From positions 1,060,557 to 1,124,556 of the forward strand of contig OZ251994.1 in the NCBI GenBank assembly GCA_965246925.1: DNA of 64,000 nt. The letters are read 5' to 3'. Shown one piece after another: positions 15,758 through 34,680 of the stretch. Within the stretch, counting starts at the first letter, position 1. Each line of letters starts with the position of its first letter. The stretch comes from Acetobacteraceae bacterium (GTDB lineage Bacteria; Pseudomonadota; Alphaproteobacteria; Acetobacterales; Acetobacteraceae). The notes under the pieces are model-generated. The model saw only the letters and a list, made by a program, of their open reading frames with translations, searched no databases and was not told the DNA's origin. The translations under genes and the position numbers were made by a program.

Positions 15758-15840
15758 GAATGCCCTCCAAGCCTTGCAACCTTCTTATAACAAAGAATGC
15801 ACGATCTTTGTCATCCGATTTTGCCCAAAGGAGACCGGAC

Positions 15841-17040
15841 ATGCCTGAGGCCTTCATCTGCGACGCCATCCGCACCCCCATCGGACGCTACGCCGGCGCA
15901 TTGAAGGACGTCCGGGCCGATGATCTTGCGGCAAACCCCATCCGGGCCCTCATCGCCCGCAATCCGGGCGTGGATTGGGAGCAGCTGGACGACACCATCA
16001 TGGGCTGCGCCAATCAGGCCGGAGAGGATAACCGCAACGTGGCGCGAATGGCGACGCTTCTGGCCGGCCTTCCCCTCACCGTGCCCGGCGCCACCGTCAA
16101 CCGGCTCTGCGGCTCCGGCCTCGACGCCATCGGCACCGCCGCTCGTGCCATCCGCGCCGGCGAGGCCCATCTCATGCTCGCCGGCGGCGTGGAGAGCATG
16201 ACCCGCGCCCCGTTCGTCATGGCGAAATCGACCGAGGCCTTCGCCCGGCAGGCCGAGATCCACGACACCACCATCGGCTGGCGCTTCGTGAACGGCCTCA
16301 TGAAGACCATGTACGGCACCGACAGCATGCCTGAAACCGGCGAGAACGTGGCCGAGCAGTTCCAGATCACCCGCGCCGCCCAGGACGCGTTCGCGCTGCG
16401 CAGCCAAGAGAAATGCGCCGCCGCTCAAGCATCCGGCTACCTCGCCGCCGAGATCGCCCCCGTCACCATCAAGGGCCGCCGCGGCGACACGGTGGTGGAC
16501 CGGGACGAACATCCCCGCGAAACGACGCTGGAGGCCCTGGCCGCGCTCAAGACGCCGTTCCGCACGCCGGGCACGGTGACGGCCGGGAACGCGTCGGGCG
16601 TGAATGACGGCGCGGCCATGCTGATCCTCGCCAGCGAAGACGCCGCCCGGCGCCACGGCCTCACGCCCCGCGCCCGGGTGGTCGGCATGGCGACGGCCGG
16701 GGTGGCGCCGCGCATCATGGGCGTGGGCCCGGTGCCCGCCGTGCAGAAGCTGCTGGCCCAGACCGGCCTCACGCTGGGCGAGGTCGACGTCATCGAGCTG
16801 AACGAGGCCTTCGCCGCCCAGGCGCTGGCCGTGTTGCGGCAGCTCGGCGTGGCCGACGACGACCCGCGCGTGAACCCGCACGGCGGGGCGATCGCGCTGG
16901 GCCACCCGCTCGGCGCATCCGGCGCCCGCCTCGCCATGACGGCGGTGCACGCGCTCCAAACCACCGGCGGCCGCCGCGCCATTATCACGATGTGCATCGG
17001 CGTCGGTCAGGGCATCGCAGCGTTGGTGGAGCGGGTCTAA
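15841..17040 (+). CDS. pcaF: 3-oxoadipyl-CoA / acetyl-CoA C-acyltransferase (thiolase)
   Basis: MPEAFICDAIRTPIGRYAGALKDVRADDLAA is typical of PcaF/PaaJ. NRLCGSGL active-site Cys and C-terminal CIGVGQG are present. AAGGAG SD precedes ATG 15841. PcaF versus PaaJ cannot be resolved here. Confidence 0.9.
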   Translation: MPEAFICDAIRTPIGRYAGALKDVRADDLAANPIRALIARNPGVDWEQLDDTIMGCANQAGEDNRNVARMATLLAGLPLTVPGATVNRLCGSGLDAIGTAARAIRAGEAHLMLAGGVESMTRAPFVMAKSTEAFARQAEIHDTTIGWRFVNGLMKTMYGTDSMPETGENVAEQFQITRAAQDAFALRSQEKCAAAQASGYLAAEIAPVTIKGRRGDTVVDRDEHPRETTLEALAALKTPFRTPGTVTAGNASGVNDGAAMLILASEDAARRHGLTPRARVVGMATAGVAPRIMGVGPVPAVQKLLAQTGLTLGEVDVIELNEAFAAQALAVLRQLGVADDDPRVNPHGGAIALGHPLGASGARLAMTAVHALQTTGGRRAIITMCIGVGQGIAALVERV

Positions 17041-20000
17041 ACCGCAAACGCAACCCGCCCCTCCGCCTGTCCGAACGCCACGAAATGCAGCAGCGGATCC
17101 ACTCCAGCCGCCCGGATGTCAGCGTAGGCGGCGAGGTATTTGCTGGTGCTGAATTGCGCCGACGGATCGCGGCCTTCTCGCCAGCCGTTGGCCTCGTAGT
17201 GCAGCAGCGGATCGATGTGCGCGGCCGCCACGTCCGGGTTGTGGCTTAGGTAATAAGCCGTGTTGAAATACGCGTCCGGGTTCAGCCCGCGCTGCCAGCC
17301 CACCGCATCGTAGCTCGCCGCCGCCTGCTGCTGCGCCGCCACGCCGGTCGGAATGAGGGTGGCACCCAACTGGGGGTCGTAATACGCCGCCTGCACCAGC
17401 GGATCCGCCGCGGCGGACGGGCCAGACAGGAACGCGGCGCGGCCCTCGTTCTGGCCGCTTTGCACGTAATGCAATAGCGGATCGATCCCCGCCGCCGCCA
17501 CGTCCGGATTGGCGGCGAAGTATTTGGCGTCGGAGAACAGAAGGCTCGGGTCCCGCGCCTCCCGCCAGCCATTCGCCTCGAAATGCAGCAGCGGATCGAT
17601 ATGGGCGGCGGCGATGTCCGGGTTCTGGGTCAGATAGAAATTCGTGTCGAACAGCGCGTCGGGATTGCGCCCCTCCATCCACCCGCTGCTGAGGTAGTGC
17701 GTCGCCGCGTCCACTCCGGCCGCCTTCACGTCCGGGTTGTGCGCGTAATAATACGCTGCATCCACCAGCGGATCGGTCAGCGTGCCGACCGCGAACGCCG
17801 CCCGCCCCTCGGCCTTGCCGCTCTGCACATAATGCAACAACGGATCGATCCCCGCCGCCTTCACATCCGGGTTGGCGGCCAGGTAGTCGCTGGTGCTGAA
17901 CGAAGCCGACGGATCACGCCCGGCCTGCCAGCCGCCATTCTCGAAATCCTGCAGCGGGTTCACGCCGGGGGTGATGGGATTGTGCGCCAGGTAGTAGCCG
18001 GTGCTGAACAGGGCGCTGGGATCCCGGCCTTCCTTCCAGCCCAGGGTGACGTAGTGCTGGTAGGGGTCGATGCCGGCGGCGGCGATGTCCGGGTTGTGTG
18101 CGAGGTAGTACACCGGGTCGAACAATGGATCGCCCGCCACCAGCTTCTGCCCGCCCGCGCCATCGGCGACCAGGGTGACGCTGACGCCGGGGGCGAGGCC
18201 GGCCAGCGTCTCCGTCCCCACGACCGAGGCGCCCTGGCGCACCGTGATGACGCTGCCGGCCAGTGAAGCCGCGAGCCCGGCGCCGAAATCCAGCGCGTCC
18301 CCGATCGCGAAGCCGGTGACCTGTCCATTGCCGGCCAGCGCATTGACTCTGATGACCGAGTTCAACCCGCTGAACTGCAGCGTCTGCCCGCCCAATCCGC
18401 CCAGCACCAGCGTGCCGCCGTTGGCGCCCAAGGTGCCGGTGCCGCTCACGCTATCGACCGACAAGGTGCCGCCCGTGGCGGTAACGGCGCCATTGACTCG
18501 CACGGACGCGTGCACCGTGCCGGCGCCACCAAGGGTCGCGCCCTGGTCCACAGTCAGCAGCCCTGCCGTCCCGGCGCTGGCGCCGATCACGCCGGTGCCC
18601 GTCCCATCGACCGTCAATGACGACCCGGCGAAGCTGGACAGGTTGGCCGCCCGGAACAGGCCGCCGGACATGACGGAGAGCGTGCCCGTGCCGCCCGCCG
18701 CCAGCCCCGATCCGGGATTGCCGCCGCCCAGCACGGCGAGCCCCGCCGCATTCAACATAGACCCGGCGCCGGATACGGTCACGGTGCCCACGCCCCCGGC
18801 CAACGAGCCGACATTCAGCGCCGATTCCGTGTCGGCATACGCGGCGCCGGAGGTGACGGTTCCGCCCGCCAGCACCGACAGCGTGCCGGTCCCGGCGCGC
18901 CCGACCGACAGCCAGTCTCCACTGGTGGTGAGGGATGAGCCGGCGCCGGTCACAGTGACGGTGCCGCTGGTGCCGGCATCGTTGCCCAGCACCGCGCCGG
19001 GCGTGGCCAGCACGTGCAATCCGCCCGCCTTTAGCGTGCCGCCGCCCTGGATGGTGACGGTGCCGGTGCCGCCGGGCCGGTCGACGCCGGAACCAACGAG
19101 CAGCTGTGCGTCCACCAGGACACGGCCCGCCGTGTCCACCGTGACGGAGCCGGAGGTGCCGCGCCGCCCTACGTCTAGATTGCCGAGGGTGTGCAGCATC
19201 GCGCCATTGCTGACCCGCGCCGTGCCCGTTCCGCCGAACAGCAGCGGGCTGTTGGGCATACCGTTTGCGCCCAGCGTGGGGGTGCCGTCGCCGATGGTGA
19301 CGGCGTATTCCAAGGCCGTGCCGCCGGCCCCCTGCCCGCCCGTGAAGGTGCCTCCCTGATCCACGATCAGCGTCCCTGTCCCGGCACGCCCGACGAAAAC
19401 GTAGCCTGACGCCGTATAGCTGGAACCCATGCCCGAAACCGTCAGCAACCCGGCGGCGCCGGCAGTTCGCCCGATGGCCAGCGCCGCGTTGACCGCGCTA
19501 TCGGCCGACGACGACCTAACCGTCCCCCCGCCCGACACCGTCGCGCTGCCGGTGCCGCTATAGCCGATCGCCACGCCGTTGGCACCGGAATCGAGGGTCG
19601 CGCCCGCGCCGTTGACCGTAAGGATCCCAGACGTACTGGCTGAGTTTCCCACCACGACATAGTATTTGCTGGTGTCACCGGCCGCAGTGAGCGCGACGTT
19701 GCCGCCATCCTGCACGCTCAGGCTCCCGGCGCCGTTCGGGTTGGTGGTGCCGCTTCCCAGGAAGAGCTGGCCGCCGAGATTAAGCCGGCTGCCGACGCCG
19801 GCCACCAGCACGGAACCGCTATCGCCTTGATTGCCCGCCACCAGCGTGTTTTCCAGCGTCGCTACCCCGCCCAGCAACACGCTGAAGCTGCCGGAGCCGC
19901 CAAACGCGGCAACACCGTTGATGGTGCCGCCCGCGCCGATAGTGTTCTGGTCCGTGGCCACGACGGAGGTCTGCGTCAGGACGCCGGCGTTGCTGACCGT

Positions 20001-20696
20001 GACCGATCCGGACGCGCCCGACGCCCGCCCGGCGTAGAAGCCGCCGCTCAGCAGGAGCTTACCGCCATTGACCGCGACCGACCCGGTCCCGCCCCGCCCG
20101 ACGGCGAGCGCCGCAACGCCGCCATTGGTTGGATCGGGCGTGCCCAGCCGCGCCGTGCCGCCTGCCAGCACGGAGAGGGTGCCGTTGCCAGTGTTCCCGA
20201 CCGCGGCCGCGTTGCCGTTAAGATCCAATAACGATCCCGTGCCCAGCACGGTGACTGAGCCAGTGGAGTTGGTGGAGCCGATGGCCAGGATGTAGTTCTG
20301 GTTCTGGGCCGCGATAGTGGTGTTGAACACGCCGCCCGCGCCGATGTTCAGCGTGCCGAGGCTCGTGCCATTGCCCGCGGCATTGCCCACCAGCGCCGTC
20401 CCGCCCGTCAGCGTCAGGGTGCCGCCGCTTACGACGTTGAGCAGGGTCTGTATGGTAAAGCCGCCGGCCGAAAGCTGACCGGGCCCGAACGTCCACGCCG
20501 TGCTCGGCCCGGCCAGGAACTGCGCCTGCGCGACGGTGGCGGTGCCGGTGATGGCCGCGCCTGACGTGGCAGAGAACTGCGCCGTGTCGGCGATGCCGGG
20601 CACGGTGGTCTCGGGCGATTCAGGAGTGGTGAGATTGGTCCAATCGGCCGCAAGAGCCAGGTCCGTCCGCACGCTGGTGAACTTATAGACGGCCAT
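17037..20696 (-). CDS. Large repeat protein: beta-helix-like Gly/Thr/Ala-rich N-terminal ~855 aa plus nine C-terminal ~37-aa repeats
   Basis: 1219-aa ORF. Periodic segments such as GSVTVxGxGSxLxxxG...GTLSVLAGG. The C-terminus carries repeated YLxxNPDVAAAGIDPLLHYxxxGWxEGRDPS units. No N-terminal signal peptide and no C-terminal beta-barrel. Confidence 0.8.
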   Translation of the reverse strand: MAVYKFTSVRTDLALAADWTNLTTPESPETTVPGIADTAQFSATSGAAITGTATVAQAQFLAGPSTAWTFGPGQLSAGGFTIQTLLNVVSGGTLTLTGGTALVGNAAGNGTSLGTLNIGAGGVFNTTIAAQNQNYILAIGSTNSTGSVTVLGTGSLLDLNGNAAAVGNTGNGTLSVLAGGTARLGTPDPTNGGVAALAVGRGGTGSVAVNGGKLLLSGGFYAGRASGASGSVTVSNAGVLTQTSVVATDQNTIGAGGTINGVAAFGGSGSFSVLLGGVATLENTLVAGNQGDSGSVLVAGVGSRLNLGGQLFLGSGTTNPNGAGSLSVQDGGNVALTAAGDTSKYYVVVGNSASTSGILTVNGAGATLDSGANGVAIGYSGTGSATVSGGGTVRSSSADSAVNAALAIGRTAGAAGLLTVSGMGSSYTASGYVFVGRAGTGTLIVDQGGTFTGGQGAGGTALEYAVTIGDGTPTLGANGMPNSPLLFGGTGTARVSNGAMLHTLGNLDVGRRGTSGSVTVDTAGRVLVDAQLLVGSGVDRPGGTGTVTIQGGGTLKAGGLHVLATPGAVLGNDAGTSGTVTVTGAGSSLTTSGDWLSVGRAGTGTLSVLAGGTVTSGAAYADTESALNVGSLAGGVGTVTVSGAGSMLNAAGLAVLGGGNPGSGLAAGGTGTLSVMSGGLFRAANLSSFAGSSLTVDGTGTGVIGASAGTAGLLTVDQGATLGGAGTVHASVRVNGAVTATGGTLSVDSVSGTGTLGANGGTLVLGGLGGQTLQFSGLNSVIRVNALAGNGQVTGFAIGDALDFGAGLAASLAGSVITVRQGASVVGTETLAGLAPGVSVTLVADGAGGQKLVAGDPLFDPVYYLAHNPDIAAAGIDPYQHYVTLGWKEGRDPSALFSTGYYLAHNPITPGVNPLQDFENGGWQAGRDPSASFSTSDYLAANPDVKAAGIDPLLHYVQSGKAEGRAAFAVGTLTDPLVDAAYYYAHNPDVKAAGVDAATHYLSSGWMEGRNPDALFDTNFYLTQNPDIAAAHIDPLLHFEANGWREARDPSLLFSDAKYFAANPDVAAAGIDPLLHYVQSGQNEGRAAFLSGPSAAADPLVQAAYYDPQLGATLIPTGVAAQQQAAASYDAVGWQRGLNPDAYFNTAYYLSHNPDVAAAHIDPLLHYEANGWREGRDPSAQFSTSKYLAAYADIRAAGVDPLLHFVAFGQAEGRVAFAV
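17040..18131 (-). repeat. Coding tandem repeats: 3 x (3 x ~37 aa) module
   Basis: The last 364 aa form three ~120-aa super-repeats, each made of three NPD(V/I)AAAG(I/V)DPLLH(Y/F)...G(W)xEGR units. The third unit of each set ends in (A/N)EGR(A/V)AF. Confidence 0.75.
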
Positions 20697-20905
20697 GAGC
20701 CAACCTCGGATGATGCGATGTCATAACAAATAGCGGCTGTTTCGCGAAGTGCAAGCTACTTTGTTGTTGGGTGGCTCATGCGTGTGCATGACGGAATGCG
20801 GCGGACATTCACCCCACGATTGCGAGCCCGCTGAAGCGAGTAAGCCAGGGCCTCAAAAGGATAGCTTCGGCCAGCGCCCTCGCGATGGTGGGGGTGTGAT
20901 GGCGT

Positions 20906-24727: not shown

Positions 24728-26230
24728 TTAGGAGATCCAGCGCCGCCGGGCCAGGGCCGAGCCGTCGATGAATTCGAAACCGCCACCGCTGTTCAGGGTA
24801 TGGAGGCGGCGGCCGGGCCAGAGCGGGCCGGCGGTCAGCACGGTTTCGACCTGCTGCGCGAACCCATCCTCGTCCAGCCGGTCCACCCGGGCGATGCCGA
24901 GCGCGGCGCCGTAGCCCTGGCTGCAGTCCTGCACCGGGCGCAGCAGCACGCCGTCCCGCACCACCATACGCCCGGCCGGGCGGGCGGAGGCGATATCGAT
25001 CAGCACCGGATTGCCGGCGTGCGCCACCCAAGGGCCGCGGAAATCGTCCGCATACCAAAGGTGCAACGTGTCGGAGTAGGCGCCGCCGTCGCGTACGGTG
25101 GCGAACATCCACCAGCGCCCGCCATGCTGGGTCAGGGTAGCGTCACTGGCGATGACGTCTTGCACGAGCGTGGCTTCCCGCACCCAGCCACCCGGGAAGG
25201 CGGTGGCGCGGAATAGGTCAATCTGCCCAGCGGCACAGCTTTCGGGGATCATCCACATCTCGCCATCGGCGGGGAACACGAACGGGTAAGAGAGGTGCCC
25301 CGGCTGCTCGAGCACCATCTCCGGGCGGCCTTCCGGGCCGTTCTGGCCCATAACCACGGCCGAGATCACGCCTTTACCGGCCCGGTGCGGAAATTCTTCG
25401 AGGAACAGGGTGGTGCGGCCGTCATGCTCGACCGGAAAAGGGTCGGCATAGAAGCGGCGGCCGTCATCCGGCAGAGTGTGCCAGCCCGTGTCCGGATGCC
25501 GGCGCAGGTCGAACAGGTCTGGCCCGTCCAGCCTACGCCAGCCGACCTGCCAGTGGGGTGAGTCGAACCAGAGCCGGTAGCCTTGGCGCAGCACTTTGGA
25601 AACGGCACGCCGGGCGGCTGTCCGCGCGGGTGTGGCGGCTTGCCGGCCCGCGCCCGATCCAGGCACGGGCGGGGTGCGGGCGGTGCCGTCCAGCGCCGAG
25701 AGAATCAGGGTCACGGCCCGCGCCTGGTAATCCTTTAGCGCCGCCTGCACCGTGCCGCCGTATTCGGTGCCGAGCCGGCCCGCGGCGATGACCTGCTCAC
25801 CCTCACGGAGGACCGCGACGGGTGGCTGCCCGGTTAGCAGCATATCCAGGAGTCCCGAGAGGCCCGGGCGGCCATCCTCCCCATCGAGCCCCCGCCCGAA
25901 GGTGAGCCGCCATACCCGGCCCGGCCCTAGTGCTGGATCTCCGCACAAATCGATCGCAAGGTCCGGCGGGCTGGAAAGCTTCTGTAGGTATGGACTGAGA
26001 TCGGCTTTGGACGAACCTGCCGATCCGTCCAGGGCCGCATCGAAGCGGAGCAGCCACCCGGCCTGCCGTGATAGGCGGCCAGCGCCCGGGCTGATATCTG
26101 CCGTGACCGAAGTGTCGGGACGTTTAGCAAGACGTTGCAGCAGGTCCAGGTGCCAGAGTTCGGCATGGGGACCGTCGAGACGGACGGTGAGACGCACGGG
26201 TGAAATCCTCGAAGTAACGAAATGGCTCAA
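24728..26230 (-). CDS. Hypothetical protein of polysaccharide loci (C-terminal GH43-like / glucosamine-inositolphosphorylceramide-transferase-like domain suspected)
   Basis: 500 aa. The C-terminal half (YADPFPVEHDGRTTLFLEEF ... GGRWWMFAT ... LHLWYADDFRGPW) recalls a conserved bacterial family seen next to EPS genes. Assignment is from memory only. Confidence 0.6.
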   Translation of the reverse strand: MSHFVTSRISPVRLTVRLDGPHAELWHLDLLQRLAKRPDTSVTADISPGAGRLSRQAGWLLRFDAALDGSAGSSKADLSPYLQKLSSPPDLAIDLCGDPALGPGRVWRLTFGRGLDGEDGRPGLSGLLDMLLTGQPPVAVLREGEQVIAAGRLGTEYGGTVQAALKDYQARAVTLILSALDGTARTPPVPGSGAGRQAATPARTAARRAVSKVLRQGYRLWFDSPHWQVGWRRLDGPDLFDLRRHPDTGWHTLPDDGRRFYADPFPVEHDGRTTLFLEEFPHRAGKGVISAVVMGQNGPEGRPEMVLEQPGHLSYPFVFPADGEMWMIPESCAAGQIDLFRATAFPGGWVREATLVQDVIASDATLTQHGGRWWMFATVRDGGAYSDTLHLWYADDFRGPWVAHAGNPVLIDIASARPAGRMVVRDGVLLRPVQDCSQGYGAALGIARVDRLDEDGFAQQVETVLTAGPLWPGRRLHTLNSGGGFEFIDGSALARRRWIS

Positions 26231-26286
26231 GCGCGTGCAGGTATGTCACGCAAACATACATTTTATGTTAACGTAAGCCAATTAAG
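26231..26286. promoter_or_regulatory. A+T-rich divergent promoter region
   Basis: CATACATTTTATGTTAACGTAAGCCAATTAAG lies between divergent genes in an otherwise G+C-rich context. No specific boxes are claimed. Confidence 0.4.
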
Positions 26287-28497
26287 ATGGAACTTGGCAA
26301 CTTGGACCCTTCAATGAGACAGCTGGTTTCCGCATCGTCCCCTTCCGGGGACCTCACGCTTTCGGCGTTGTCGCAAGGGTTTGCGCAGCCGGAGGGGACG
26401 GCGTCGGCCGGAGATCTATGGCGCATTCTGTGGCGCCGCCGCTTGTCGATCGGCGCGGTGACCTTGCTGCTGTTGGGGCTAACGCTCGCCTACTGCCTGC
26501 TGGCGCCACCGCTTTATACGTCGTCGTCCGAGCTGCTGATCGATCCGCGGGACCGCGTCGTCGTGGTGAACGATATCAATCCATCGACGGTCGCCCCGGA
26601 TGGCGGCATCACGCAGATCGAAAGCCAGGCACGGGTTATCGAATCATCGAGCGTCCTTCTGCGTGCCATTCAGCAGACCCACCTCACGGAAGACACCGAT
26701 TTCAACGGGGACGGTAAATGGGACCGCTTCGTGGAGATGATCAATCTCGGCCCGGCGAAGCCGCGGACGGAGGAGTCGGTTCTGGAGACGACGCTGGGCA
26801 GCTTGAAACGGCGGCTGTCGGTGAAACGGGCGGATAAAGTCTTTGTGATCGAGGTGATCATCAGCGCGCGGACGGCGGAGAAATCGGCGCGGCTGGCAAA
26901 TGCGATCGCCGAGGCCTACCTGGCGGACCTAGGGGCGGCGCGGGCGCAGTCTGGGGAGCGCGCGGCAAACGCGCTAGCGGCCAAGCTCGAGGCGCAGCAC
27001 GCGCGGGTGGACGAGGCGGAGAACGCCATCCAGGATTACAAACAGGAAAACGGCATCGTCACCGCGAGCGGGCAATTGCTGGGCGATCAGAAGCTGATCG
27101 AACTCAGCACCATGCTGACATCGGCGCAGAGCCGTAGTTCGGGCTTGCGGGCCAAGATCGATCAGGTGGACCAGGTCAGGCGATCCCAGGGCGCGGCCGA
27201 CGCAACGGCGGAGGCACTGCAATCCCCGGTGATCGGCAAGCTGCGTGAGCAGGAATCTGGCTTAGTGCAACAGAAGGCCGATCTGGAAGCGCGGCTGGGG
27301 CCCAATCATCCCGCGCTGGCCAACAACCGCGCTCAGCTGAATGACGTCCGCCGGCTGATCGGTGCCGAACTCACGCGTATCGCGACCTCGACCCGGGCGG
27401 ATTATGAACGGGCACTCAGCGATGAGCGGTTGCTGTCGGGCCAGATTCAACGGATTCAGAACTCGGCCAACGCCGTAAACCAGGCGATGGTCGGGCTGCG
27501 GGCGCTGGAGCGGGATTTGGACGCCCGGCGAAGCGTCTATACCGCTTTCCTGGTCCGCTCGCAGGAGATCCGGGAGCAGGCCGGAATCGACACGAGCAAT
27601 GCCCGGGTCATCACGCGGGCCATGCCGCCGTCTAAAAAGAGCTGGCCGTTGACGGGCATCCTGCTCGCGGGTGCCTTGGGCAGCGGGCTTGGGCTAGGGG
27701 GCGGACTGGCGCTCATACGGGAATATGCCCGGCCGACGCTGCTGGGGCCGCGGCAGGTGGAGCAGGCGGCTGGCGCGCGGGTGGTGGCGGTCTTGCCGGG
27801 ACGGGCGGGAAAGCACGCCGCCGGGGCGCTTCCGGCATTGCAGCGCACCGCGGATATACCCGGGCCGGGGGAGGACCGGGCGATCGGCAGCCTCGGCCTG
27901 GCGCTGCGCCGCATGCTGGATTTGCACGAGAGTGCGGAAGAACAGGTGGCGGTCCAAACCTTGGTCATCACGTCCGGCGCGGGTGACCTCAGCTCACGGC
28001 GCCGGGTCTGCACCCTGTTTGCGGCGGCCGCAGCCCGGCGGGGCGACCGGGTGCTGCTGGTGGAGGCCGGCCAGATCGGCACCGTGTTCAGCCAGGAGCC
28101 GGGGTTGATGGATGTGTTGCGCGGAGACCAGAAATTGGCGGCAGCGGTGCAACGGCCGGCTTCGTCCGGTCCCGCCCGTCTTGGTCCCGGACGCGCCTCG
28201 CAGCAGGACGGGACGACGCTTCAGGATCTGAGCCTCGGGCGGCGGGGTCAGCGGGAGAACGCCGCCTGGCGCATGCTGGTCGAGGCGCGAAACCTGTTCG
28301 ACCTCGTGATCATCGACGGCGGTGTTCTCACGGATAACCTGGCCGTGGCGCCCTTGCTTTCGGCGGCCAACGAAGTGGTGTTCGTCGCCCATTTGGCGCG
28401 GACGACGCTGCACGATCTGCGGGTGCTGGCGGACGCGGCCATGATTATGGGGCACCCGCTTTCGGCCGCGGTGCTGATCGATGACCGGATTGGCTAG
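26287..28497 (+). CDS. GumC/Wzz-type polysaccharide co-polymerase with degenerate C-terminal BY-kinase-like domain
   Basis: N-terminal TM, a long coiled-coil periplasmic region, a second TM (WPLTGILLAGALGSGLGLGGGLALI), then a P-loop-NTPase-like domain lacking GK(S/T). Confidence 0.8.
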   Translation: MELGNLDPSMRQLVSASSPSGDLTLSALSQGFAQPEGTASAGDLWRILWRRRLSIGAVTLLLLGLTLAYCLLAPPLYTSSSELLIDPRDRVVVVNDINPSTVAPDGGITQIESQARVIESSSVLLRAIQQTHLTEDTDFNGDGKWDRFVEMINLGPAKPRTEESVLETTLGSLKRRLSVKRADKVFVIEVIISARTAEKSARLANAIAEAYLADLGAARAQSGERAANALAAKLEAQHARVDEAENAIQDYKQENGIVTASGQLLGDQKLIELSTMLTSAQSRSSGLRAKIDQVDQVRRSQGAADATAEALQSPVIGKLREQESGLVQQKADLEARLGPNHPALANNRAQLNDVRRLIGAELTRIATSTRADYERALSDERLLSGQIQRIQNSANAVNQAMVGLRALERDLDARRSVYTAFLVRSQEIREQAGIDTSNARVITRAMPPSKKSWPLTGILLAGALGSGLGLGGGLALIREYARPTLLGPRQVEQAAGARVVAVLPGRAGKHAAGALPALQRTADIPGPGEDRAIGSLGLALRRMLDLHESAEEQVAVQTLVITSGAGDLSSRRRVCTLFAAAAARRGDRVLLVEAGQIGTVFSQEPGLMDVLRGDQKLAAAVQRPASSGPARLGPGRASQQDGTTLQDLSLGRRGQRENAAWRMLVEARNLFDLVIIDGGVLTDNLAVAPLLSAANEVVFVAHLARTTLHDLRVLADAAMIMGHPLSAAVLIDDRIG

Positions 28498-29857
28498 CCC
28501 GGCCGGCCGGCCAACCGGGGCCGCGTTCGGCCTCCTGATGCTGCTGATCACGTTCGTCGTGATCGGCGTGTCCGGCGGCATGCTCTGGCTGGTTGGCTAC
28601 AACTACGACGGGCTGACGGGCGGCGTGGTGACGAAGCTTCATCCATCCACCTTTCTCATTTTCGCCGCCTTCCTGTTCCGCGCCGTGAGCGCGGGAAATC
28701 CCGTGCGCTACGCGGTAGAAGGGGCCTGGTCGAGGCCGGGCAGTTTCTTTCTGATACTGGCCGCGCTGGTGATGTTCATCCAGATCGTAGCCCGCGCCGG
28801 CACCGGCATCGCCGGCACGATCGACACCTTCATGCCGGCCGCGCTGCTGCTGATCTTGATGGCGGATGTGGATGACCGGACGGCGGGGCGGATGGAGAAC
28901 CTGCTACATGTGCTCATGTTCATCAACGCCGTGCTGGCGCTGGTGGAGTTCGGCGGCCATGTGCGGATTTTCCCCTACCGGCTGGACGGGAAAGTGTTCC
29001 CGCTCGAGACGCGGTCCGCCGGTCTGCAAGGGCATCCGCTGATGGGAGCGGCCATCACCGCTTGCTATAGTTTGGGCCTTGTGAACGGCGCCCGGTCTCT
29101 GCCGGGCTGGTTCCGATTGGCGATGCTCGCGCTACAAGGCGCCGCGCTCATCACCTTCGGCGGACGGGCGGCGACGGTCATGACCCTCGCAATGATGGCC
29201 GTGTTCTTCGCCGGTGAAACGCACCGGCTGTTCCGCGCGGGCGCGGTCCCGATATTGGGAGCAGCATTTGCCTTGTTCGTCGCTGCGATCGTGCCGGCCG
29301 TGGCAGGGATCCTGATCGAGCGTGGCTTCTTCGATGCCTTGCTGATGCGGTTCGTTCGGGATGGCGGCAGCGCCAACGCGCGTGTCGAAATGTTCAGCCT
29401 CTTCGGGTCCATTCCGTTTCGGGACCTGCTGGTGGGGCCCGATACTGGCTTGGTCGAGAGCTTACGCCGGGTCAGCGGCCTGGAATGGGGAATCGAGCAG
29501 CCGATCGTGAACACACTGCTGCATCAGGGCGTAATGATTACGCTACTCATGACAGCCGCCATGGCCGGCTTCCTCACGGAGGTCGGACGGCGGGCTGGCC
29601 ACGGGGTTTGGCTGCCGATGCTCACGTTTGTGATCGTAATGCAAACGTCAGAAAGCGTTTCGAGCAAGACGACGATGCTGACCAAGTTCACGCTAATGAT
29701 GATGTTGCTATACCGGCCCCGGGCTCACCCGGCGGTGCGGAGGCCGAGCGCCTCGATCATGGCGGGGTCGAGCGCGCGGGTAGTGTCGTCCATGAGGCCC
29801 ATGCCGTCGAATAGGTTCCAGAAGGCCCACCCGAACCCGAAACCCTCTGCCATCTGA
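28481..29857 (+). CDS. O-antigen ligase/Wzy-like polysaccharide polymerase
   Basis: Polytopic membrane protein with RSAGLQGHPLMGAAIT, resembling the Wzy_C R-x-x-G-x-x-x-H-P-N loop. The last ~45 codons overlap the convergent GH5 gene and look non-native. Confidence 0.6.
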   Translation: MTGLASPAGRPTGAAFGLLMLLITFVVIGVSGGMLWLVGYNYDGLTGGVVTKLHPSTFLIFAAFLFRAVSAGNPVRYAVEGAWSRPGSFFLILAALVMFIQIVARAGTGIAGTIDTFMPAALLLILMADVDDRTAGRMENLLHVLMFINAVLALVEFGGHVRIFPYRLDGKVFPLETRSAGLQGHPLMGAAITACYSLGLVNGARSLPGWFRLAMLALQGAALITFGGRAATVMTLAMMAVFFAGETHRLFRAGAVPILGAAFALFVAAIVPAVAGILIERGFFDALLMRFVRDGGSANARVEMFSLFGSIPFRDLLVGPDTGLVESLRRVSGLEWGIEQPIVNTLLHQGVMITLLMTAAMAGFLTEVGRRAGHGVWLPMLTFVIVMQTSESVSSKTTMLTKFTLMMMLLYRPRAHPAVRRPSASIMAGSSARVVSSMRPMPSNRFQKAHPNPKPSAI

Positions 29858-30948
29858 CGGACATCACGCACGTAGCGCGCCCGGTCTGGGGCGGGGGCGG
29901 CGGTATAGCGCTGATCGGTGCGGAGCGCGCCGAACTCCCCCATGACGAGCCGGGCGGAGGGTATGCCGTGCTTTGTGCCCCAGTCCGCGACCGCGCCCAG
30001 ATATTGCCTCAGAAAGGGGCGGTCCGGTTGCGCGGCGAAATAGACGCCCAGGACTTTCTCGGTTTCCTGCATGGCCGCGCGCCGCTCATCTGCACTTGTG
30101 CCGTGATCTTCGCTCATGCGGCGGCGGACCGAGGCCAGCGTTTGCTGCAACGACCCGGCGGAGGCTGGCCAGGGCACATTATTCAGCGCGCGATACACCG
30201 GCTCCCGCATCCAGGGCGCGCCCTGATGGCTAAACAAATAGGGCTCGTAGAAGTGGAAGGCATAGAGCAACGGCTCGAGCGGATGAAGTGGGGCCGGGTC
30301 TAGAGCGACAAGGCCGCTGGGCATGCTGCCGCAGGCGCCGGTAGCAACCAATGTCAGGCCTGGCGCGGCCCGGCGAGCGGTGGATAGTAACTGTATTTGC
30401 AGTCCGGCCCACTCCGCCGATACGCAGGCCTGCGGCGGTTCGTTCACCGGTTCCAGCGCCACGCGGGCAAGGTCAAGGCGGCCCAGTCTGGCCGCGAAAG
30501 CCTCAACCAACAGGAGGTAGGGGTTCAGAGCCGGGGCGGTATGCGCCGAATACATTCTGTCCGGCGTCCAATGATGGGTAGCCCCATTGCCGTGTAGGTT
30601 GACGATCACCGACAATCGTTCGGAAAGCGCGGACTGAACGGCCTCCATGACGTCCTGCAGCAACGCGCCACGCTTGGCTTCATCAAAGGCAAGGAATGGC
30701 CCGGGATCGACGGGGATGCGGATAAAGTCAAAGCCGGCCTGGCGCAGTCTCCGCAAATCTGCCCTGCCCGGCACGGCGCGCTGCGCCTGCCAGGGAGGCC
30801 AAGGGTAGTCTGTCCGGGGTGCCGGATATTCACGGGTGAGCGAGAACCACGGCCAGGTATTCACCCCGCGGCGGAAAGACGATCCCGTCGGTGCAGTTAG
30901 CGGCGCCGCGGCCAAGAGTTGGGCCGCGCGCCGCCGGGTTAGTCTCAA
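29725..30948 (-). CDS. Glycoside hydrolase family 5 (endoglucanase-like), exported
   Basis: Tat-like RRRAAQLL signal. GFDFIRIPV, NLHG, EPVNEP (acid/base), FHFYEP, MGEFG (nucleophile). Confidence 0.8.
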   Translation of the reverse strand: MRLTRRRAAQLLAAAPLTAPTGSSFRRGVNTWPWFSLTREYPAPRTDYPWPPWQAQRAVPGRADLRRLRQAGFDFIRIPVDPGPFLAFDEAKRGALLQDVMEAVQSALSERLSVIVNLHGNGATHHWTPDRMYSAHTAPALNPYLLLVEAFAARLGRLDLARVALEPVNEPPQACVSAEWAGLQIQLLSTARRAAPGLTLVATGACGSMPSGLVALDPAPLHPLEPLLYAFHFYEPYLFSHQGAPWMREPVYRALNNVPWPASAGSLQQTLASVRRRMSEDHGTSADERRAAMQETEKVLGVYFAAQPDRPFLRQYLGAVADWGTKHGIPSARLVMGEFGALRTDQRYTAAPAPDRARYVRDVRQMAEGFGFGWAFWNLFDGMGLMDDTTRALDPAMIEALGLRTAG

Positions 30949-32117
30949 CCCACTTCCTGCCCGACCAGGGCGGATGCACGCGTCCGGCCCTCAATGAGCG
31001 ATAGGCCTAAAAGCTCGGCCGCCTCCGTCTCATACGCGGCGAGCACGTCGTCCCACACGAACTCTTCCCGGGCCCGGCGGCGGGCGGCGCTTTGGGCATC
31101 GGCGATAAAAGCGTCATCCTCGATGGCGCGCACCATGCAGGCCTCACACTGTGCTGCAGTGTCGAAATAGGCTCCAGCGTCGCCCGCGGTCCAACGGTTG
31201 AACGGGTTGTCATGGGCGATGACGGCGTTCCCGGCCCAGAGCGCTTCCACGAGGGACGGGTTGGTCCCCCCTACCATATGGCCATGGAGGTAGGCCCGCG
31301 CGTGGAACCGTATCGCGCTCACGGCCGTGGCGTCATAGATGGCGCCCGGAAAAACCACCTCGTCGCTCGCAGCCTCCATCACTTGGCGATGGTATGCGCG
31401 TTCCATGTCCAGCGTGCCGACCACGACGAGCTTGCATCCCCGCTTCTCCTTGGAGAACGCTTCGACGAAGGCGGCGATATTATTGTCCGGCTCGATCCGG
31501 GCAATGGAGAGCAAGTAGTTGCCAGGCTCGAGTCCTAAATCCCACACTGGTCCGGTTCCAGCCTGAGTGACCGGGTGGCCACCATAGGGAATCATGCGGA
31601 TGGCGTCCCGCCCGCGGCGGGTGGCGACGTGCTTTGCAATGGCAGGATGATCTGCAATGAGGCGGTGAGAGGTCCAGGCGGCAATCCATTCGTTCACCCA
31701 GAACCAGCTTCGCGCGGCCATGCCCCATTTCGGGCGCTTCCACTCGATACCGTCCATGTTCGTCATCACCTTACGGCCATACAACCGAAGGTAGGGCAGG
31801 AACGCGGCACCATTATAACCAAGCACCAGGCATACGCCAGGGCGCCGCGCCGCGTCTTTGACGCAATGCCAGTCAAACTCCAGCGTAGCACGAGGGCCGG
31901 AGGAGCTGACGCTGACGTGCCGCCGCTCGATCCCGCGCCAGCGGTCAGACACGATCCGGTCCACGACGATAGGGACTTCGGACTGACAGTAAACGGTCAC
32001 ATCCCAGCCGCGTGATACCAAAAACAGCGCAAGCTTCTCGGCAAACGTCTCAAATCCGCCATGCGAGGCCGGTATCCCCCGCGTGCCCAAGATCTGAATG
32101 GCAGCCCGAAACTTCAC
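30945..32117 (-). CDS. Glycosyltransferase (DUF1972 N-terminal domain + GT1/GT4 C-terminal domain)
   Basis: ILGTRGIPASHGGFETFAEKLALFLVSRGWDVTVYC is the DUF1972 signature. The C-terminal region is GT-B-like. Confidence 0.8.
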   Translation of the reverse strand: MKFRAAIQILGTRGIPASHGGFETFAEKLALFLVSRGWDVTVYCQSEVPIVVDRIVSDRWRGIERRHVSVSSSGPRATLEFDWHCVKDAARRPGVCLVLGYNGAAFLPYLRLYGRKVMTNMDGIEWKRPKWGMAARSWFWVNEWIAAWTSHRLIADHPAIAKHVATRRGRDAIRMIPYGGHPVTQAGTGPVWDLGLEPGNYLLSIARIEPDNNIAAFVEAFSKEKRGCKLVVVGTLDMERAYHRQVMEAASDEVVFPGAIYDATAVSAIRFHARAYLHGHMVGGTNPSLVEALWAGNAVIAHDNPFNRWTAGDAGAYFDTAAQCEACMVRAIEDDAFIADAQSAARRRAREEFVWDDVLAAYETEAAELLGLSLIEGRTRASALVGQEVG

Positions 32118-32279
32118 GATGATGTCCCAATCAGCTCAGGTTAATAATAATCTCTTAAACTAGACGGAAGTAAGCGAGTTTTATTACAGCGATGGTTGAG
32201 TAATATGAGACATTACCACCAGGGCTATGTCTTGCGCAAGCCCTATGGCATAGCACGCGGGATTTAACGGATTTGTCCG
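32118..32279. promoter_or_regulatory. A+T-rich divergent promoter region between the two glycosyltransferase genes
   Basis: TTAATAATAATCTCTTAAACTAGAC... is the most A+T-rich intergenic segment of the EPS locus. No boxes are claimed. Confidence 0.4.
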
Positions 32280-33386
32280 ATGCGCATCGCCTGCGTCCAC
32301 CAAGGGTATGAACTGTACGGTTCAGATCGCTGTTTTGCTGAAAGCGTGGCGGCGCTGCGAGTTGCCTACCCAGCGGCCGAAATCGACGTCGTGCTGCCCC
32401 GGCCGGGTCCGCTGGCAACTTATCTGGGCCCGACCGCCACGCGCATCCTGTTCGAGCGGCTATGGATCCTACGGCGGCGTGACCTCAAAACCTTGATGAC
32501 CATCGGGCTCCTCAGGCTTCCAGCCGCATTGATGCGCGCCGCACGGCGCTGCCGAAGTTATAACCTAGTTTACATCAACACGTCCGTCGTCACCGATCAC
32601 ATCCTAGCCGCGCGGATCGCCCCATCCCGCGTCTTGCTGCACGTGCACGAAATCCCCGAGGGCCTCACGCTTACCATCCTGCGCAGCTTGGTGCGGTGGA
32701 GCCACGCGCAGATCATCTTCAACTCGCATGCGACCGAAGCGGCCTTCGCCTTACCCACTCGAGCCCGGGCACAGGTCATCTACAATGGCATCACCGGGCC
32801 GCAGGCGGCTGAGCCGTCCGGCTATGACGGCACTCGTCCGCTCCGGCTGCTGCTCCTGGGACGCATCAACCGGATCAAGGGTCAAGAGGTTTTGCTCGAG
32901 GCAATGGCCGCCCTGCCCGATGCTACCCGTGCACGGATCGAGGTCAGGATGGTCGGTAACGCTTTCGAGAGCCCGGACAGCGAAGCGGCCCTGCATGCGC
33001 TGAAAGACCGCCTCAACCTCTCCAGCACGGTGTCGATCGAGCCGTTCGCCGAAGACACCGCCCCGCTTTACCGCTGGGCCGATTGGGTGATCGTGCCGTC
33101 CCGCCGTCCGGAATCGTTAGGCCGGGTCGCGATCGAGGCGATGGCGTATGCGCGTCCGGTGCTGGCCTCTGCGATCGGCGGGTTGAAGGAGGTCGTGCTG
33201 GACGGGCAGACCGGGTGGCTCATTCCGCCAGACCGCGCCGACGCGTTGGCCGAGCGGCTGCAGCATATCATCGGGGAGCCGGCGTCGTGGCAGGGCTTCG
33301 CCGCCGCGGCCCGCCAGCGCTACCTCGAATTGTTCAGCGACCAGGCTGCCGCGCAGGCGTTGGCCACGCTTGTCCGGGCCATGTAG
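32280..33386 (+). CDS. Glycosyltransferase family 4 (GT-B)
   Basis: RINRIKGQEVLLEA..., VPSRRPESLGRVAIEAMAYARPVLASAIGGLKEVV (E-x7-E region). Confidence 0.85.
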   Translation: MRIACVHQGYELYGSDRCFAESVAALRVAYPAAEIDVVLPRPGPLATYLGPTATRILFERLWILRRRDLKTLMTIGLLRLPAALMRAARRCRSYNLVYINTSVVTDHILAARIAPSRVLLHVHEIPEGLTLTILRSLVRWSHAQIIFNSHATEAAFALPTRARAQVIYNGITGPQAAEPSGYDGTRPLRLLLLGRINRIKGQEVLLEAMAALPDATRARIEVRMVGNAFESPDSEAALHALKDRLNLSSTVSIEPFAEDTAPLYRWADWVIVPSRRPESLGRVAIEAMAYARPVLASAIGGLKEVVLDGQTGWLIPPDRADALAERLQHIIGEPASWQGFAAAARQRYLELFSDQAAAQALATLVRAM

Positions 33387-33396
33387 TGCCGCACGC

Positions 33397-34677: not shown

Positions 34678-34680
34678 TGG

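What the first reader, a model, noticed from the sequence alone, without database searches (positions are those of the whole stretch)
17037..20696. 1219-aa beta-helix-like repeat protein with no signal peptide, no autotransporter barrel and no RTX repeats
The N-terminal ~855 aa are Gly/Thr/Ala/Ser-rich with recurring ~45-50-aa segments (G(S/T)(V/L)T(V/L)xGxGSxLxxxG ... GTLSVLAGG). These are reminiscent of autotransporter-associated beta-strand repeats and pectate-lyase-like beta-helices. Three expected features are missing:
- The protein starts MAVYKFTSVRTDLALAADW with no cleavable signal.
- It has no C-terminal beta-barrel.
- It has no GGxGxD nonapeptides.

Its secretion route, if it is secreted, is therefore unclear. 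No T1SS or TPS partner gene is adjacent. Its stop overlaps the stop of the convergent thiolase gene (CTAA).
Basis: partly seen in the sequence, partly recalled or inferred. Interest (0 to 1): 0.6.

Follow-up and report, generated by a model that had tools for sequence, protein, structure and literature searches.

The report
Signal-less beta-helix adhesin with helical-repeat tail
This is a real gene for a long, Ag43-like beta-helix surface protein that lacks every usual export tag and ends in a 364-residue helical-repeat cassette that is in no domain or structure database; related bacteria attach the same cassette to many different signal-less exoenzymes, so it is probably an undescribed export and/or surface-anchoring device.

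Summary
The ORF is real but lies on the minus strand (17037-20696, 1219 aa).

**N-terminal part.** Residues 1-855 match NCBIfam TIGR04393 (T5SS/PEP-CTERM-associated repeat). They model confidently as a beta-helix whose closest solved folds are the autotransporter passengers Ag43 and TibA.

**C-terminal part.** Residues 856-1219 are nine ~38-aa helical repeats arranged 3x3.
- They have no Pfam match, no PDB sequence match and no PDB fold match.
- The repeat family is very large, about 21,000 clusters at 50% identity.
- It occurs in two settings: arrays inside giant glycosyltransferases, and this 3x3 cassette at the extreme C-terminus of signal-less proteins.
- The proteins carrying the cassette have about 26 kinds of N-terminal domain, including serralysin, subtilase, lipase, GH16, CAP, peroxidase, RTX and beta-helices. 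Almost all end ...GQAEGRxAFxV.

**Reading.** Relatives of the beta-helix elsewhere carry an autotransporter barrel, PEP-CTERM or RTX instead. The genome has HlyB/HlyD/TolC. T6SS is missing from 7 of 10 cassette-bearing genomes.

Best reading (about 0.5): a T1SS-type exported adhesin whose cassette carries the export signal, surface-glycan anchoring, or both. Secretion and expression remain untested.

The parts
17037..20696 (-). Whole gene, 1219 codons plus a TAG stop. Product is acidic (pI 4.68) and has no cysteine.
   Evidence: Collinear homologues at 45-72% identity.
20697..20720 (-). Translation start region: GAGG Shine-Dalgarno 7 nt before the ATG at 20696-20694. The 209-bp intergenic region upstream gave no sigma-70 consensus hit.
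18132..20696 (-). Residues 1-855: right-handed beta-helix passenger-like domain built of TIGR04393 (T5SS/PEP-CTERM-associated) repeats. It begins with the conserved MAxYxW...GDLGLAADW cap.
   Evidence: 6 stretches, E=3e-29. (AF2 pLDDT 90.4, pTM 0.86, all beta). (Ag43 7koh E=3.7e-7, TibA 4q1q, 4kh3). (relatives carry PF03797, PF07589 or PF00353 instead of the C-module).
17040..18131 (-). Residues 856-1219: C-terminal cassette of nine ~38-aa helical repeats arranged 3x3. Consensus is F(D/S)xxxYLxxNPDVAAAGxDPLxHYxxxGWxEGRxPS. The third unit of each triplet ends GQAEGRxAF.
   Evidence: AF2 pLDDT 91.9, three short helices per unit. No Pfam hit, no PDB sequence hit, no PDB fold hit. 21,401 representative clusters.
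17802..18131 (-). Triplet 1: units 1-3, aa 856-891, 892-927 and 928-965.
17439..17801 (-). Triplet 2: units 4-6, aa 966-1010, 1011-1048 and 1049-1086.
17055..17438 (-). Triplet 3: degenerate unit 7 with a long inserted helix (my split of the 90-residue segment aa 1087-1176 at about aa 1138), then unit 8 (to aa 1176) and unit 9 (aa 1177-1214).
17040..17054 (-). Extreme C-terminus VAFAV-COOH. In 159 of 172 C-terminal-cassette proteins the chain ends at most one residue past the cassette, and their tails give the consensus GQAEGR(T/A)AF(A/T)V. Candidate part of an uncleaved C-terminal export signal (inferred).
17037..17040 (.). CTAA: overlapping convergent stop codons, TAA of the thiolase gene 15760-17040 (+) and TAG of this gene (-).

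Best explanation
The gene encodes a cell-surface or extracellular beta-helix protein. It is most likely an adhesin or self-associating protein of the Ag43/TibA structural type. It is made without a Sec/Tat signal and exported by a C-terminal, type I (HlyB/HlyD/TolC) route encoded elsewhere in the genome.

The N-terminal 855 residues are the functional passenger. The C-terminal 364 residues are a self-contained 3x3 helical-repeat cassette, which a set of Acetobacteraceae attach to the extreme C-terminus of many unrelated exoproteins. The cassette stands where other bacteria place an autotransporter barrel, a PEP-CTERM tag or RTX-plus-signal on the same kind of beta-helix.

I infer that the cassette's last unit(s) carry the uncleaved export signal. 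The same 38-aa repeat also decorates cytoplasmic and giant-virus glycan-building enzymes. From this I infer that the body of the cassette binds a glycan and so holds the exported protein on the cell's own polysaccharide coat.

**Shown:** gene, fold, repeat anatomy, cassette distribution, absence of other export tags, presence of T1SS genes.

**Inferred:** export itself, the T1SS route, and glycan binding.
For: 1. **No N-terminal signal.** This holds for the query and for all 118 homologues tested. Their maximum hydrophobicity is 1.67, against 2.3-2.7 for the periplasmic controls.
2. **Cassette position.** The cassette is at the extreme C-terminus in 172 of 238 best hits. In 159 of these the chain ends at most one residue past it, and those tails give the consensus ...GQAEGRxAFxV.
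3. **Conserved as a unit.** The cassette is 55-80% identical across proteins whose N-terminal parts fall into 26 unrelated groups.
4. **Exoprotein-type partners.** Those groups include typical T1SS/exoprotein domains: Peptidase_M10 plus M10_C (serralysin), RTX in 6 of 34, S8, Lipase_3, GH16, GH113, CBM60, Big_13/6, CAP and haem peroxidase.
5. **Swappable C-terminal devices.** Relatives of the N-terminal beta-helix carry PF03797 barrels, PF07589 PEP-CTERM, PF00353 RTX or Hint_2 at their C-termini.
6. **T1SS-like composition.** The product is acidic (pI 4.68) and has no cysteine.
7. **T1SS genes present.** The genome has a HlyB-type ABC transporter (TIGR01846, 540 bits over the full length), HlyD (362 bits, over cut-off) and TolC (317 bits, over cut-off).
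8. **T1SS in all cassette genomes.** HlyD is present in all 10 cassette-bearing genomes tested.
9. **Other routes excluded or unlikely.** T6SS is absent from 7 of the 10, including the complete genomes G021 and G007. There is no VirB4 in the own genome.
10. **Glycan link.**
  - The repeat occurs in two giant glycosyltransferases of the same genome, one of them directly next to a cassette protein.
  - Many of the longest proteins (1,500-2,500 aa) in the representative search carry N-terminal or internal arrays. Earlier scan notes and one named hit (P0010) identify such arrays in giant glycosyltransferases.
  - It occurs in giant-virus GT2, FkbM and GT proteins by fold.
  - An EPS locus lies 4 kb away in the window.
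Against: - **No linkage to T1SS genes.** None lies within 10 kb of this gene or of 80 related loci, or in 5 further contexts.
- **Co-occurrence says nothing either way.** HlyD is present in 25 of 25 family genomes, with or without the cassette.
- **The repeat folds in the cytoplasm elsewhere.** It also sits in presumably cytoplasmic glycosyltransferases, so the repeat as such is not a secretion signal. It evidently folds at cytoplasmic calcium levels, which is awkward for a T1SS substrate that must stay unfolded.
- **ABC transporter type.** It is of the HlyB type with an N-terminal C39-like region, which in studied systems recognises RTX regions. This protein has none.
- **Glycan binding is inferred only from domain company.**
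Confidence: 0.5

Rival explanations
1. The protein is extracellular or surface-located, but the cassette is only a retention or glycan-binding domain. Release is by some other, unidentified route such as outer-membrane vesicles, lysis or an undescribed exporter, and T1SS plays no part.
For: - No T1SS linkage in more than 85 contexts.
- The repeat folds in cytoplasmic enzymes.
- The conserved ...EGRxAFxV end also occurs inside the cassette at the end of each triplet. Its conservation may therefore reflect a domain boundary and not a signal.
Against: - The partner domains (serralysin M10 plus M10_C, RTX, haem peroxidase, lipase) are classic T1SS cargo.
- The strict extreme-C-terminal position in 172 of 238 hits is what an uncleaved C-terminal signal predicts.
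- T1SS is the only signal-independent exporter found in all ten cassette genomes tested.
Confidence: 0.22
2. The protein is not exported. It is a cytoplasmic or inner-membrane-associated part of polysaccharide assembly. The helical repeats dock it to the same machinery or polymer as the repeat-bearing glycosyltransferases, and the beta-helix acts on the nascent glycan in the manner of a lyase or epimerase.
For: - The repeats are shared with giant glycosyltransferases in the same genome. One of these (C1:2031479-2035210) directly precedes a cassette-bearing beta-helix protein (C1:2035680-2038919).
- An EPS locus lies 4 kb upstream in the window.
- There is no export tag.
- Lower-ranked fold hits include PL6 alginate lyases and tailspikes.
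Against: - The best fold matches are adhesin passengers, not enzymes.
- No catalytic family is detected.
- The cassette partners CAP, serralysin, subtilase, GH16 and RTX make sense only outside the cell.
- Relatives of the beta-helix are autotransporters or PEP-CTERM proteins.
- Only 3 of 80 related loci have a second repeat-bearing gene nearby.
Confidence: 0.13
3. It is a phage- or gene-transfer-agent-related fibre or tailspike-like protein, released by lysis. The cassette would attach it to a particle or to host capsule.
For: - The paralogue at C1:1923642-1927532 is followed by a 467-aa ORF that I read as terminase-like from synteny; this ORF was not scanned. Its orthologue P0023 sits next to a terminase (PF03237/PF17289) followed by about ten genes with no Pfam hit, which I read as phage-like.
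- Single cassette proteins carry a phage tail-collar domain or a GTA_TIM domain.
- Tailspikes appear among weak fold hits.
Against: - The only PHROG match is a negligible one: 18 bits over 12 residues.
- The viral fold hits of the cassette are giant-virus glycosyltransferases, not tail proteins.
- This gene has no phage genes around it.
- Protease, lipase, peroxidase and CAP partners do not fit.
Confidence: 0.05
4. It is a T6SS cargo effector, with the cassette as a loading marker.
For: - The genome has a T6SS (TssC, 694 bits).
- T6SS effectors lack signal peptides and include lipases and glycoside hydrolases.
Against: - T6SS is absent from 7 of 10 cassette-bearing genomes, including complete ones with full cassettes.
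- Known T6SS markers (MIX, FIX, RIX, PAAR) are N-terminal (from knowledge).
- No VgrG, PAAR or adaptor gene is nearby.
Confidence: 0.03

Closest known systems
Self-associating autotransporter passengers of the AIDA-I type (Ag43, TibA; PDB 7koh, 4kh3, 4q1q)
   Same: - Long right-handed beta-helix of Gly/Thr/Ser/Ala-rich rungs.
- These are the top Foldseek hits, E 4e-7 to 1e-6, prob 1.0.
- Sequence relatives of the N-domain are annotated autotransporters with PF03797 and PF12951.
   Different: - No Sec signal, no autochaperone or beta-barrel translocator, and 12-15% identity only.
- The C-terminus is a helical-repeat cassette.
- TM-scores are low (0.2-0.66) because helix length and bend differ.
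TIGR04393 'T5SS/PEP-CTERM-associated repeat' proteins
   Same: Six significant copies of the 49-aa repeat (100.7 bits against a cut-off of 23).
   Different: By name and, the family's members normally end in an autotransporter barrel or a PEP-CTERM tag and begin with a signal peptide. This one has none of these.
RTX / T1SS substrates (serralysins, HlyA, LapA-type adhesins) exported by HlyB-HlyD-TolC
   Same: - No N-terminal signal, and a conserved element at the extreme C-terminus.
- Acidic and cysteine-free.
- The cassette's partners include serralysin M10 plus M10_C and RTX.
- HlyB/HlyD/TolC are present in the genome.
   Different: - No GGxGxD nonapeptides.
- The C-terminal region is a folded helical solenoid-like array, not a beta-roll plus a disordered signal.
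- No linkage to T1SS genes.
Rhizobium leguminosarum PrsDE substrates (Rap adhesins, PlyA/PlyB glycanases) and Caulobacter RsaA
   Same: - T1SS cargo encoded away from the exporter.
- They act on, or are held by, the cell's own EPS, CPS or O-antigen (PMC9298526 abstract; otherwise from knowledge).
- This is the best functional analogy for 'exported, then held on surface polysaccharide'.
   Different: - Different domains: Ra/CHDL, heptapeptide repeats, and RsaA's own fold.
- No sequence or fold relationship to the cassette. RsaA 5n8p is only a weak hit to the beta-helix (E 0.33).
38-aa helical repeat arrays of giant polysaccharide glycosyltransferases (unnamed; WbsX/GT2/GT4 fusions; giant-virus GTs)
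   Same: - The same repeat family. HMM hits reach the own-genome glycosyltransferases at C1:2031479-2035210 and C1:2638367-2641405.
- Fold hits reach Hyperionvirus and Fadolivirus GT2, FkbM and GT proteins at 20-25% identity.
   Different: - There the array is N-terminal or internal, of variable length, with a PHPLFD-type linker, in proteins expected to be cytoplasmic.
- Here it is a fixed 3x3 cassette at the extreme C-terminus of exoprotein-type domains.

Membership tests
TIGR04393 T5SS/PEP-CTERM-associated repeat proteins | Match to the 49-position repeat model above its curated cut-off (23 bits) | tested here: met
   100.7 bits, E=3.2e-29, 6 stretches, best at aa 568-616.
Classical autotransporter (T5aSS) | Cleavable N-terminal Sec signal peptide | tested here: not met
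   No hydrophobic h-region: best 12-residue Kyte-Doolittle mean 0.82, against 2.3-2.7 for periplasmic controls. This is a crude measure; no dedicated predictor was available.
Classical autotransporter (T5aSS) | C-terminal 12-stranded beta-barrel translocator (PF03797) | tested here: not met
   No Pfam hit. The C-terminal 364 aa model as short helices with pLDDT 92.
Classical autotransporter (T5aSS) | Beta-helical passenger | tested here: met
   AF2 model all beta, pTM 0.86. Foldseek hits Ag43 and TibA at prob 1.0.
RTX proteins / T1SS substrates | Tandem GGxGxD calcium-binding nonapeptides (PF00353) | tested here: not met
   No motif by regex. No PF00353 hit.
RTX proteins / T1SS substrates | Uncleaved secretion signal in the last about 50-60 residues, recognised by the ABC/MFP pair | not testable with these tools
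   There is no consensus to score. Indirect support only: the extreme-C-terminal cassette ends in a conserved ...GQAEGRxAFxV in 159 of 172 proteins.
RTX proteins / T1SS substrates | A HlyB/PrtD-type ABC transporter, HlyD-type adaptor and TolC in the genome | tested here: met
   - ABC transporter: TIGR01846 540 bits (below its curated cut-off of 725).
- HlyD: 362 bits, over cut-off.
- TolC: 317 bits, over cut-off.
-. None is adjacent to the gene.
Two-partner secretion TpsA (haemagglutinin-like) | N-terminal signal peptide plus TPS domain (PF05860), with a TpsB partner | tested here: not met
   No Pfam hit, no signal peptide, and no TpsB-like neighbour.
PEP-CTERM / exosortase substrates | C-terminal PEP motif, transmembrane helix and basic tail (PF07589) | tested here: not met
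   No PF07589 hit. The chain ends ...GQAEGRVAFAV.
Unnamed 38-aa helical repeat family (glycosyltransferase-associated) | Tandem ~38-aa units with YLxxNPD...DPLxHY...G(W)xEGRxP, three short helices each | tested here: met
   Nine units. AF2 helices. 21,401 related clusters. Shared with own-genome glycosyltransferases.

The most novel reading that the evidence does not exclude
The 3x3 helical-repeat cassette is a new, RTX-independent class of C-terminal export-and-retention domain for type I secretion. Its last unit would be the signal. Its body would be a glycan-binding solenoid that fixes a whole repertoire of enzymes and adhesins to the cell's own polysaccharide coat. The same 38-aa repeat would serve as the polymer-binding element of bacterial and giant-virus glycan polymerases.
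Probability: 0.3. Interest if true: 0.75.

Novelty: new variant of a known kind. Interest (0 to 1): 0.6.

Why it matters
- **A new way to display a known passenger.** Beta-helix adhesins are known, but only with T5SS barrels, PEP-CTERM tags or RTX tails. Here the same passenger, and about 25 other exoprotein types, carry a conserved 364-aa helical cassette that no domain or structure database describes.
- **Annotation.** If the cassette is an export and/or anchoring device, it defines the secreted and surface proteome of a group of Acetobacteraceae. By the record titles, most related loci come from uncultured Acetobacteraceae or Rhodospirillales MAGs, at least one of them from a lichen. These proteins are currently annotated as 'hypothetical' with no predicted localisation.
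- **T1SS biology.** It would add an RTX-free substrate class.
- **Glycobiology.** It would give a function to a repeat found in about 21,000 protein clusters, including giant glycosyltransferases.
- **Applied use.** A portable C-terminal tag that exports and displays enzymes would be useful.

Tried and rejected
- **Plus-strand reading of the coordinates.** Full of stops; the gene is on the minus strand.
- **Domain and structure databases.**
  - Pfam on the whole protein: nothing.
  - PADLOC was not tried.
  - PHROGs: nothing meaningful.
  - PDB sequence profile of the cassette: nothing.
- **Linkage to T1SS.**
  - tblastn with the genome's own ABC transporter and HlyD against 80 related loci (1.2 Mb) found no HlyD and only generic ABC nucleotide-binding-domain hits.
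  - Five look-ups of encoding contigs showed no T1SS genes either.
- **Phylogenetic co-occurrence with T1SS.** Uninformative, because HlyD is in 25 of 25 family genomes.
- **T6SS route.** Rejected.
- **T4SS.** No VirB4 in the genome.
- **Literature.** Searches for the TIGR04393 name, for repeat motif strings, and for T1SS with Acetobacteraceae or lichen found nothing on this cassette.
- **Promoter and terminator scan.** Nothing upstream of the gene.
- **Second repeat-bearing gene near cassette genes.** Only 3 of 80 loci, so glycosyltransferase adjacency is not a general rule.
Full report
**Observation**

- The coordinates hold a 1219-codon ORF, but on the minus strand. The plus strand is closed.
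- The ORF starts at ATG 20696 behind a GAGG Shine-Dalgarno.
- It ends in a TAG that overlaps the TAA of the convergent thiolase gene, as CTAA at 17037-17040.
- Full-length collinear homologues at 45-72% identity exist in metagenomes and MAGs, so it is a real conserved gene.
- The first 855 residues are G/A/T/S-rich. There is no GGxGxD motif.
- Pfam finds nothing in the whole protein: no autotransporter barrel, no TPS domain, no PEP-CTERM, no RTX.
- The N-terminus lacks a hydrophobic h-region. Its best 12-residue Kyte-Doolittle mean is 0.82, against 2.3 and 2.7 for a cytochrome c and a GSDH-family (glucose/sorbosone dehydrogenase) protein of the same window.
- The neighbours are a thiolase, an FAD monooxygenase, an MFS transporter and a LysR regulator.

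**The N-terminal part**

- NCBIfam TIGR04393, the 'T5SS/PEP-CTERM-associated repeat', matches six times (100.7 bits against a cut-off of 23).
- AlphaFold2 was run on an alignment of nine collinear homologues (A2). It gives an all-beta model with pLDDT 90.4 and pTM 0.86.
- The best solved-structure matches are the self-associating autotransporter passengers:
  - Ag43 (7koh, E=3.7e-7)
  - TibA (4q1q)
  - 4kh3
  - all at probability 1.0.
- Pertactin, Hbp, EspP, tailspikes and PL6 lyases follow far behind.
- A second database search restricted to residues 1-850 shows that relatives of this beta-helix end in different devices:
  - PF03797 autotransporter barrels (many)
  - PF07589 PEP-CTERM
  - PF00353 RTX
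  - PF13403 Hint_2
  - the module described next, in the closest relatives.
- The passenger is therefore a known kind. What varies is the C-terminal device.

**The C-terminal part**

- Residues 856-1219 (window 17040-18131) are nine units of about 38 residues.
  - The consensus is F(D/S)xxxYLxxNPDVAAAGxDPLxHYxxxGWxEGRxPS.
  - The units are arranged as three triplets. The third unit of each triplet ends GQAEGRxAF.
  - Unit 7 is degenerate, with an inserted helix.
- AlphaFold2 on a 19-sequence alignment gives pLDDT 91.9, with three short helices per unit.
- The module is unknown to every library tried:
  - no PDB sequence match
  - no PDB fold match, best Foldseek E=3.2
  - no Pfam model.
- The repeat family is nevertheless very large. 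A full HMMER scan of 1.84 billion representatives gives 21,401 clusters at E<=1e-3 and 2,639 at E<=1e-30.
- I found no paper that names it.

**Two architectures of the repeat**

- I classified the 238 best proteins by where the repeat lies.
  - In 172 the module is at the extreme C-terminus.
  - In 29 it is N-terminal.
  - In 37 it is internal.
- The N-terminal and internal arrays belong mostly to proteins of 900-2,500 residues. Where annotated, these carry glycosyltransferase or methyltransferase domains (P0010). Earlier scan notes describe the same thing.
- The window's own genome has two such enzymes:
  - C1:2031479-2035210, whose 1243-aa sequence I read as a multi-domain glycosyltransferase; it was not scanned against Pfam
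  - C1:2638367-2641405, with a C-terminal region that I read as GT4-like; also not scanned.
- Against predicted viral structures, the module's only hits are giant-virus GT2, FkbM-methyltransferase and other glycosyltransferase proteins, at 20-25% identity.
- The C-terminal class is different. The whole 364-residue 3x3 unit is conserved at 55-80% identity as a block.
- In 159 of the 172 the chain ends at most one residue past the module, and those tails give the consensus G-Q-A-E-G-R-T-A-F-A-V.

**What the C-terminal cassette is attached to**

- The N-terminal parts of 168 cassette proteins fall into 26 unrelated groups.
- The largest group (96 proteins) is Gly/Thr-rich beta-helix-like and includes the query.
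- A Pfam scan of representatives finds:
  - RTX (6 of 34)
  - Peptidase_M10 plus the serralysin C-terminal domain
  - subtilase S8 and Lipase_3
  - GH16, GH113 and CBM60
  - Big_13/Big_6 and CAP
  - animal-type haem peroxidase and cyclophilin
  - right-handed beta-helix and pectate-lyase-like domains
  - phage tail collar and GTA_TIM.
- None of 118 complete homologues has a signal-peptide-like N-terminus.
- These are the domain types that alphaproteobacteria usually export by type I secretion behind an RTX block. That statement is from general knowledge; see also the RTX review PMC3034196 listed.
- The query is acidic (pI 4.68) and has no cysteine.
- The own genome has four cassette proteins:
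  - the query
  - a 1296-aa paralogue with a similar beta-helix (C1:1923642-1927532)
  - a 772-aa protein with an unknown duplicated N-domain (C1:2085878-2088196)
  - a 1079-aa protein whose N-terminus resembles the neighbouring PF13229 (right-handed beta-helix) protein (C1:2035680-2038919).
- By the record titles, the family is concentrated in Acetobacteraceae and Rhodospirillales MAGs, at least one of them from a lichen. Some genomes have several copies.

**Export machinery**

- The genome has one bona fide T1SS.
  - The 795-aa ABC protein aligns end to end with the HlyB subfamily model, including its N-terminal region (TIGR01846, 540 bits, below the curated 725).
  - A HlyD adaptor follows directly (362 bits, over cut-off).
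  - Next in the operon come a Sel1-repeat protein and glycosyltransferases.
  - A TolC lies at C1:474797-476038 (317 bits, over cut-off).
- The genome also has four or five RTX ORFs, so the T1SS is not an orphan.
- No T1SS gene lies near this gene, near 80 related loci, or in five further contexts.
- HlyD is in all 10 cassette-bearing genomes tested, but also in all 15 others. This is consistent with T1SS but does not discriminate.
- A T6SS is present here. It is absent from 7 of the 10 cassette-bearing genomes, among them two complete single-contig genomes with full cassettes.
- VirB4 is absent.
- T1SS is therefore the only known signal-independent protein exporter that all cassette genomes tested share.

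**Interpretation**

- The best-supported reading is this. The protein is an Ag43-like beta-helix surface protein made without a Sec signal. It is exported through the unlinked HlyB/HlyD/TolC system by virtue of its C-terminus.
- The 3x3 cassette is a portable export and/or retention device. It replaces the barrel, PEP-CTERM or RTX tail seen on related passengers.
- The same repeat sits in cytoplasmic glycan polymerases, so the repeat itself cannot be the signal. I place the signal in the last unit(s).
- I propose that the body of the cassette binds polysaccharide and holds the exported protein on the cell's own coat. The closest functional analogies are the Rhizobium PrsDE substrates (Rap proteins, PlyA/B) and Caulobacter RsaA.
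- An EPS locus 4 kb upstream fits this, as does the glycosyltransferase-cassette gene pair at C1:2031479-2038919. Both are weak support: only 3 of 80 loci show such a pairing.
- Points against the reading:
  - there is no linkage to T1SS genes
  - the repeat evidently folds in the cytoplasm
  - the transporter is of a HlyB type that normally recognises RTX
- I put the T1SS-exported adhesin reading at about 0.5.
- I put the rivals as follows:
  - 0.22 for an exported protein that uses another route, with the cassette purely an anchor
  - 0.13 for a non-exported component of polysaccharide machinery
  - 0.05 for a phage- or GTA-related fibre
  - 0.03 for T6SS cargo.

**Novelty**

- The passenger is a new member of a known kind.
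- The C-terminal cassette is, as far as these libraries and the searchable literature show, undescribed. So are its fixed 3x3 form, its strict terminal position and its promiscuous fusion to exoprotein domains.
- Overall this is a new variant of a known kind. It opens a testable question about RTX-free type I substrates and about the function of a very common unannotated repeat.

Noticed in passing
own genome C1:2031479-2035210 and C1:2035680-2038919 (outside the window): A 1243-aa protein with N-terminal 38-aa repeats, which I read from its sequence as a multi-domain glycosyltransferase (not scanned against Pfam), lies directly upstream of a 1079-aa signal-less protein that carries the C-terminal 3x3 cassette. 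That second protein's N-terminus resembles the PF13229 right-handed beta-helix protein noted below. This is the only place in the genome where the two repeat architectures are neighbours. A similar pair occurs in locus L029.
   Followed up: partly
own genome C1:3828102-3838838 (outside the window): The single HlyB/HlyD T1SS pair is followed in the same direction by four genes: a 585-aa Sel1-repeat protein, a 1021-aa TPR+GT2+GT1 protein, a 331-aa ChW-like protein with a Lys/Pro/Ala-rich tail, and a GT4. This is an unusual T1SS-glycosyltransferase cluster.
   Followed up: partly
own genome C1:1923642-1929294; locus L014:8192-13804: The cassette-bearing paralogue and its orthologue P0023 both sit head-to-head with a phage-related gene. 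In L014 this is a terminase large-subunit gene followed by about ten genes with no Pfam hit. In the own genome the 467-aa neighbour was not scanned. Both may mark a prophage or GTA border.
   Followed up: no
own genome C1:2090313-2092946: An 877-aa signal-less protein (MANLTVGSGSGF...) has a right-handed beta-helix domain followed by four CBM60 modules joined by long Pro/Thr/Ala linkers. It lies 2 kb from the cassette protein at C1:2085878-2088196. It has no cassette and no recognisable export tag either.
   Followed up: partly
window 24728-35832: A Wzx/Wzy-type exopolysaccharide locus begins 4 kb upstream of the gene. It includes a GINT1_N-like 500-aa protein, a Wzz/GNVR co-polymerase, a GH5 glycanase and two GT4 enzymes, along with several ORFs that have no Pfam hit.
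   Followed up: partly
model m40f70a141b97 against BFVD: The helical repeat has fold and sequence relatives (20-25% identity) in glycosyltransferase and FkbM-methyltransferase proteins of giant viruses (Hyperionvirus, Fadolivirus, Indivirus). The repeat therefore travels with glycan-building enzymes well beyond bacteria.
   Followed up: no
own genome C1:727637-730309: An 890-aa protein has a similar N-terminal cap (MATYAWRSGVNGSWGNAALW) and beta-helix-like repeats but no cassette. It lies about 2 kb from an HlyD-like membrane-fusion protein gene (C1:732334-733128, weak TIGR01843 hit).
   Followed up: no
own genome C1:1056480-1057445 (about 3 kb before the window's start): An 812-aa open frame with RTX nonapeptide repeats, one of only four or five RTX ORFs in the genome.
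   Followed up: no
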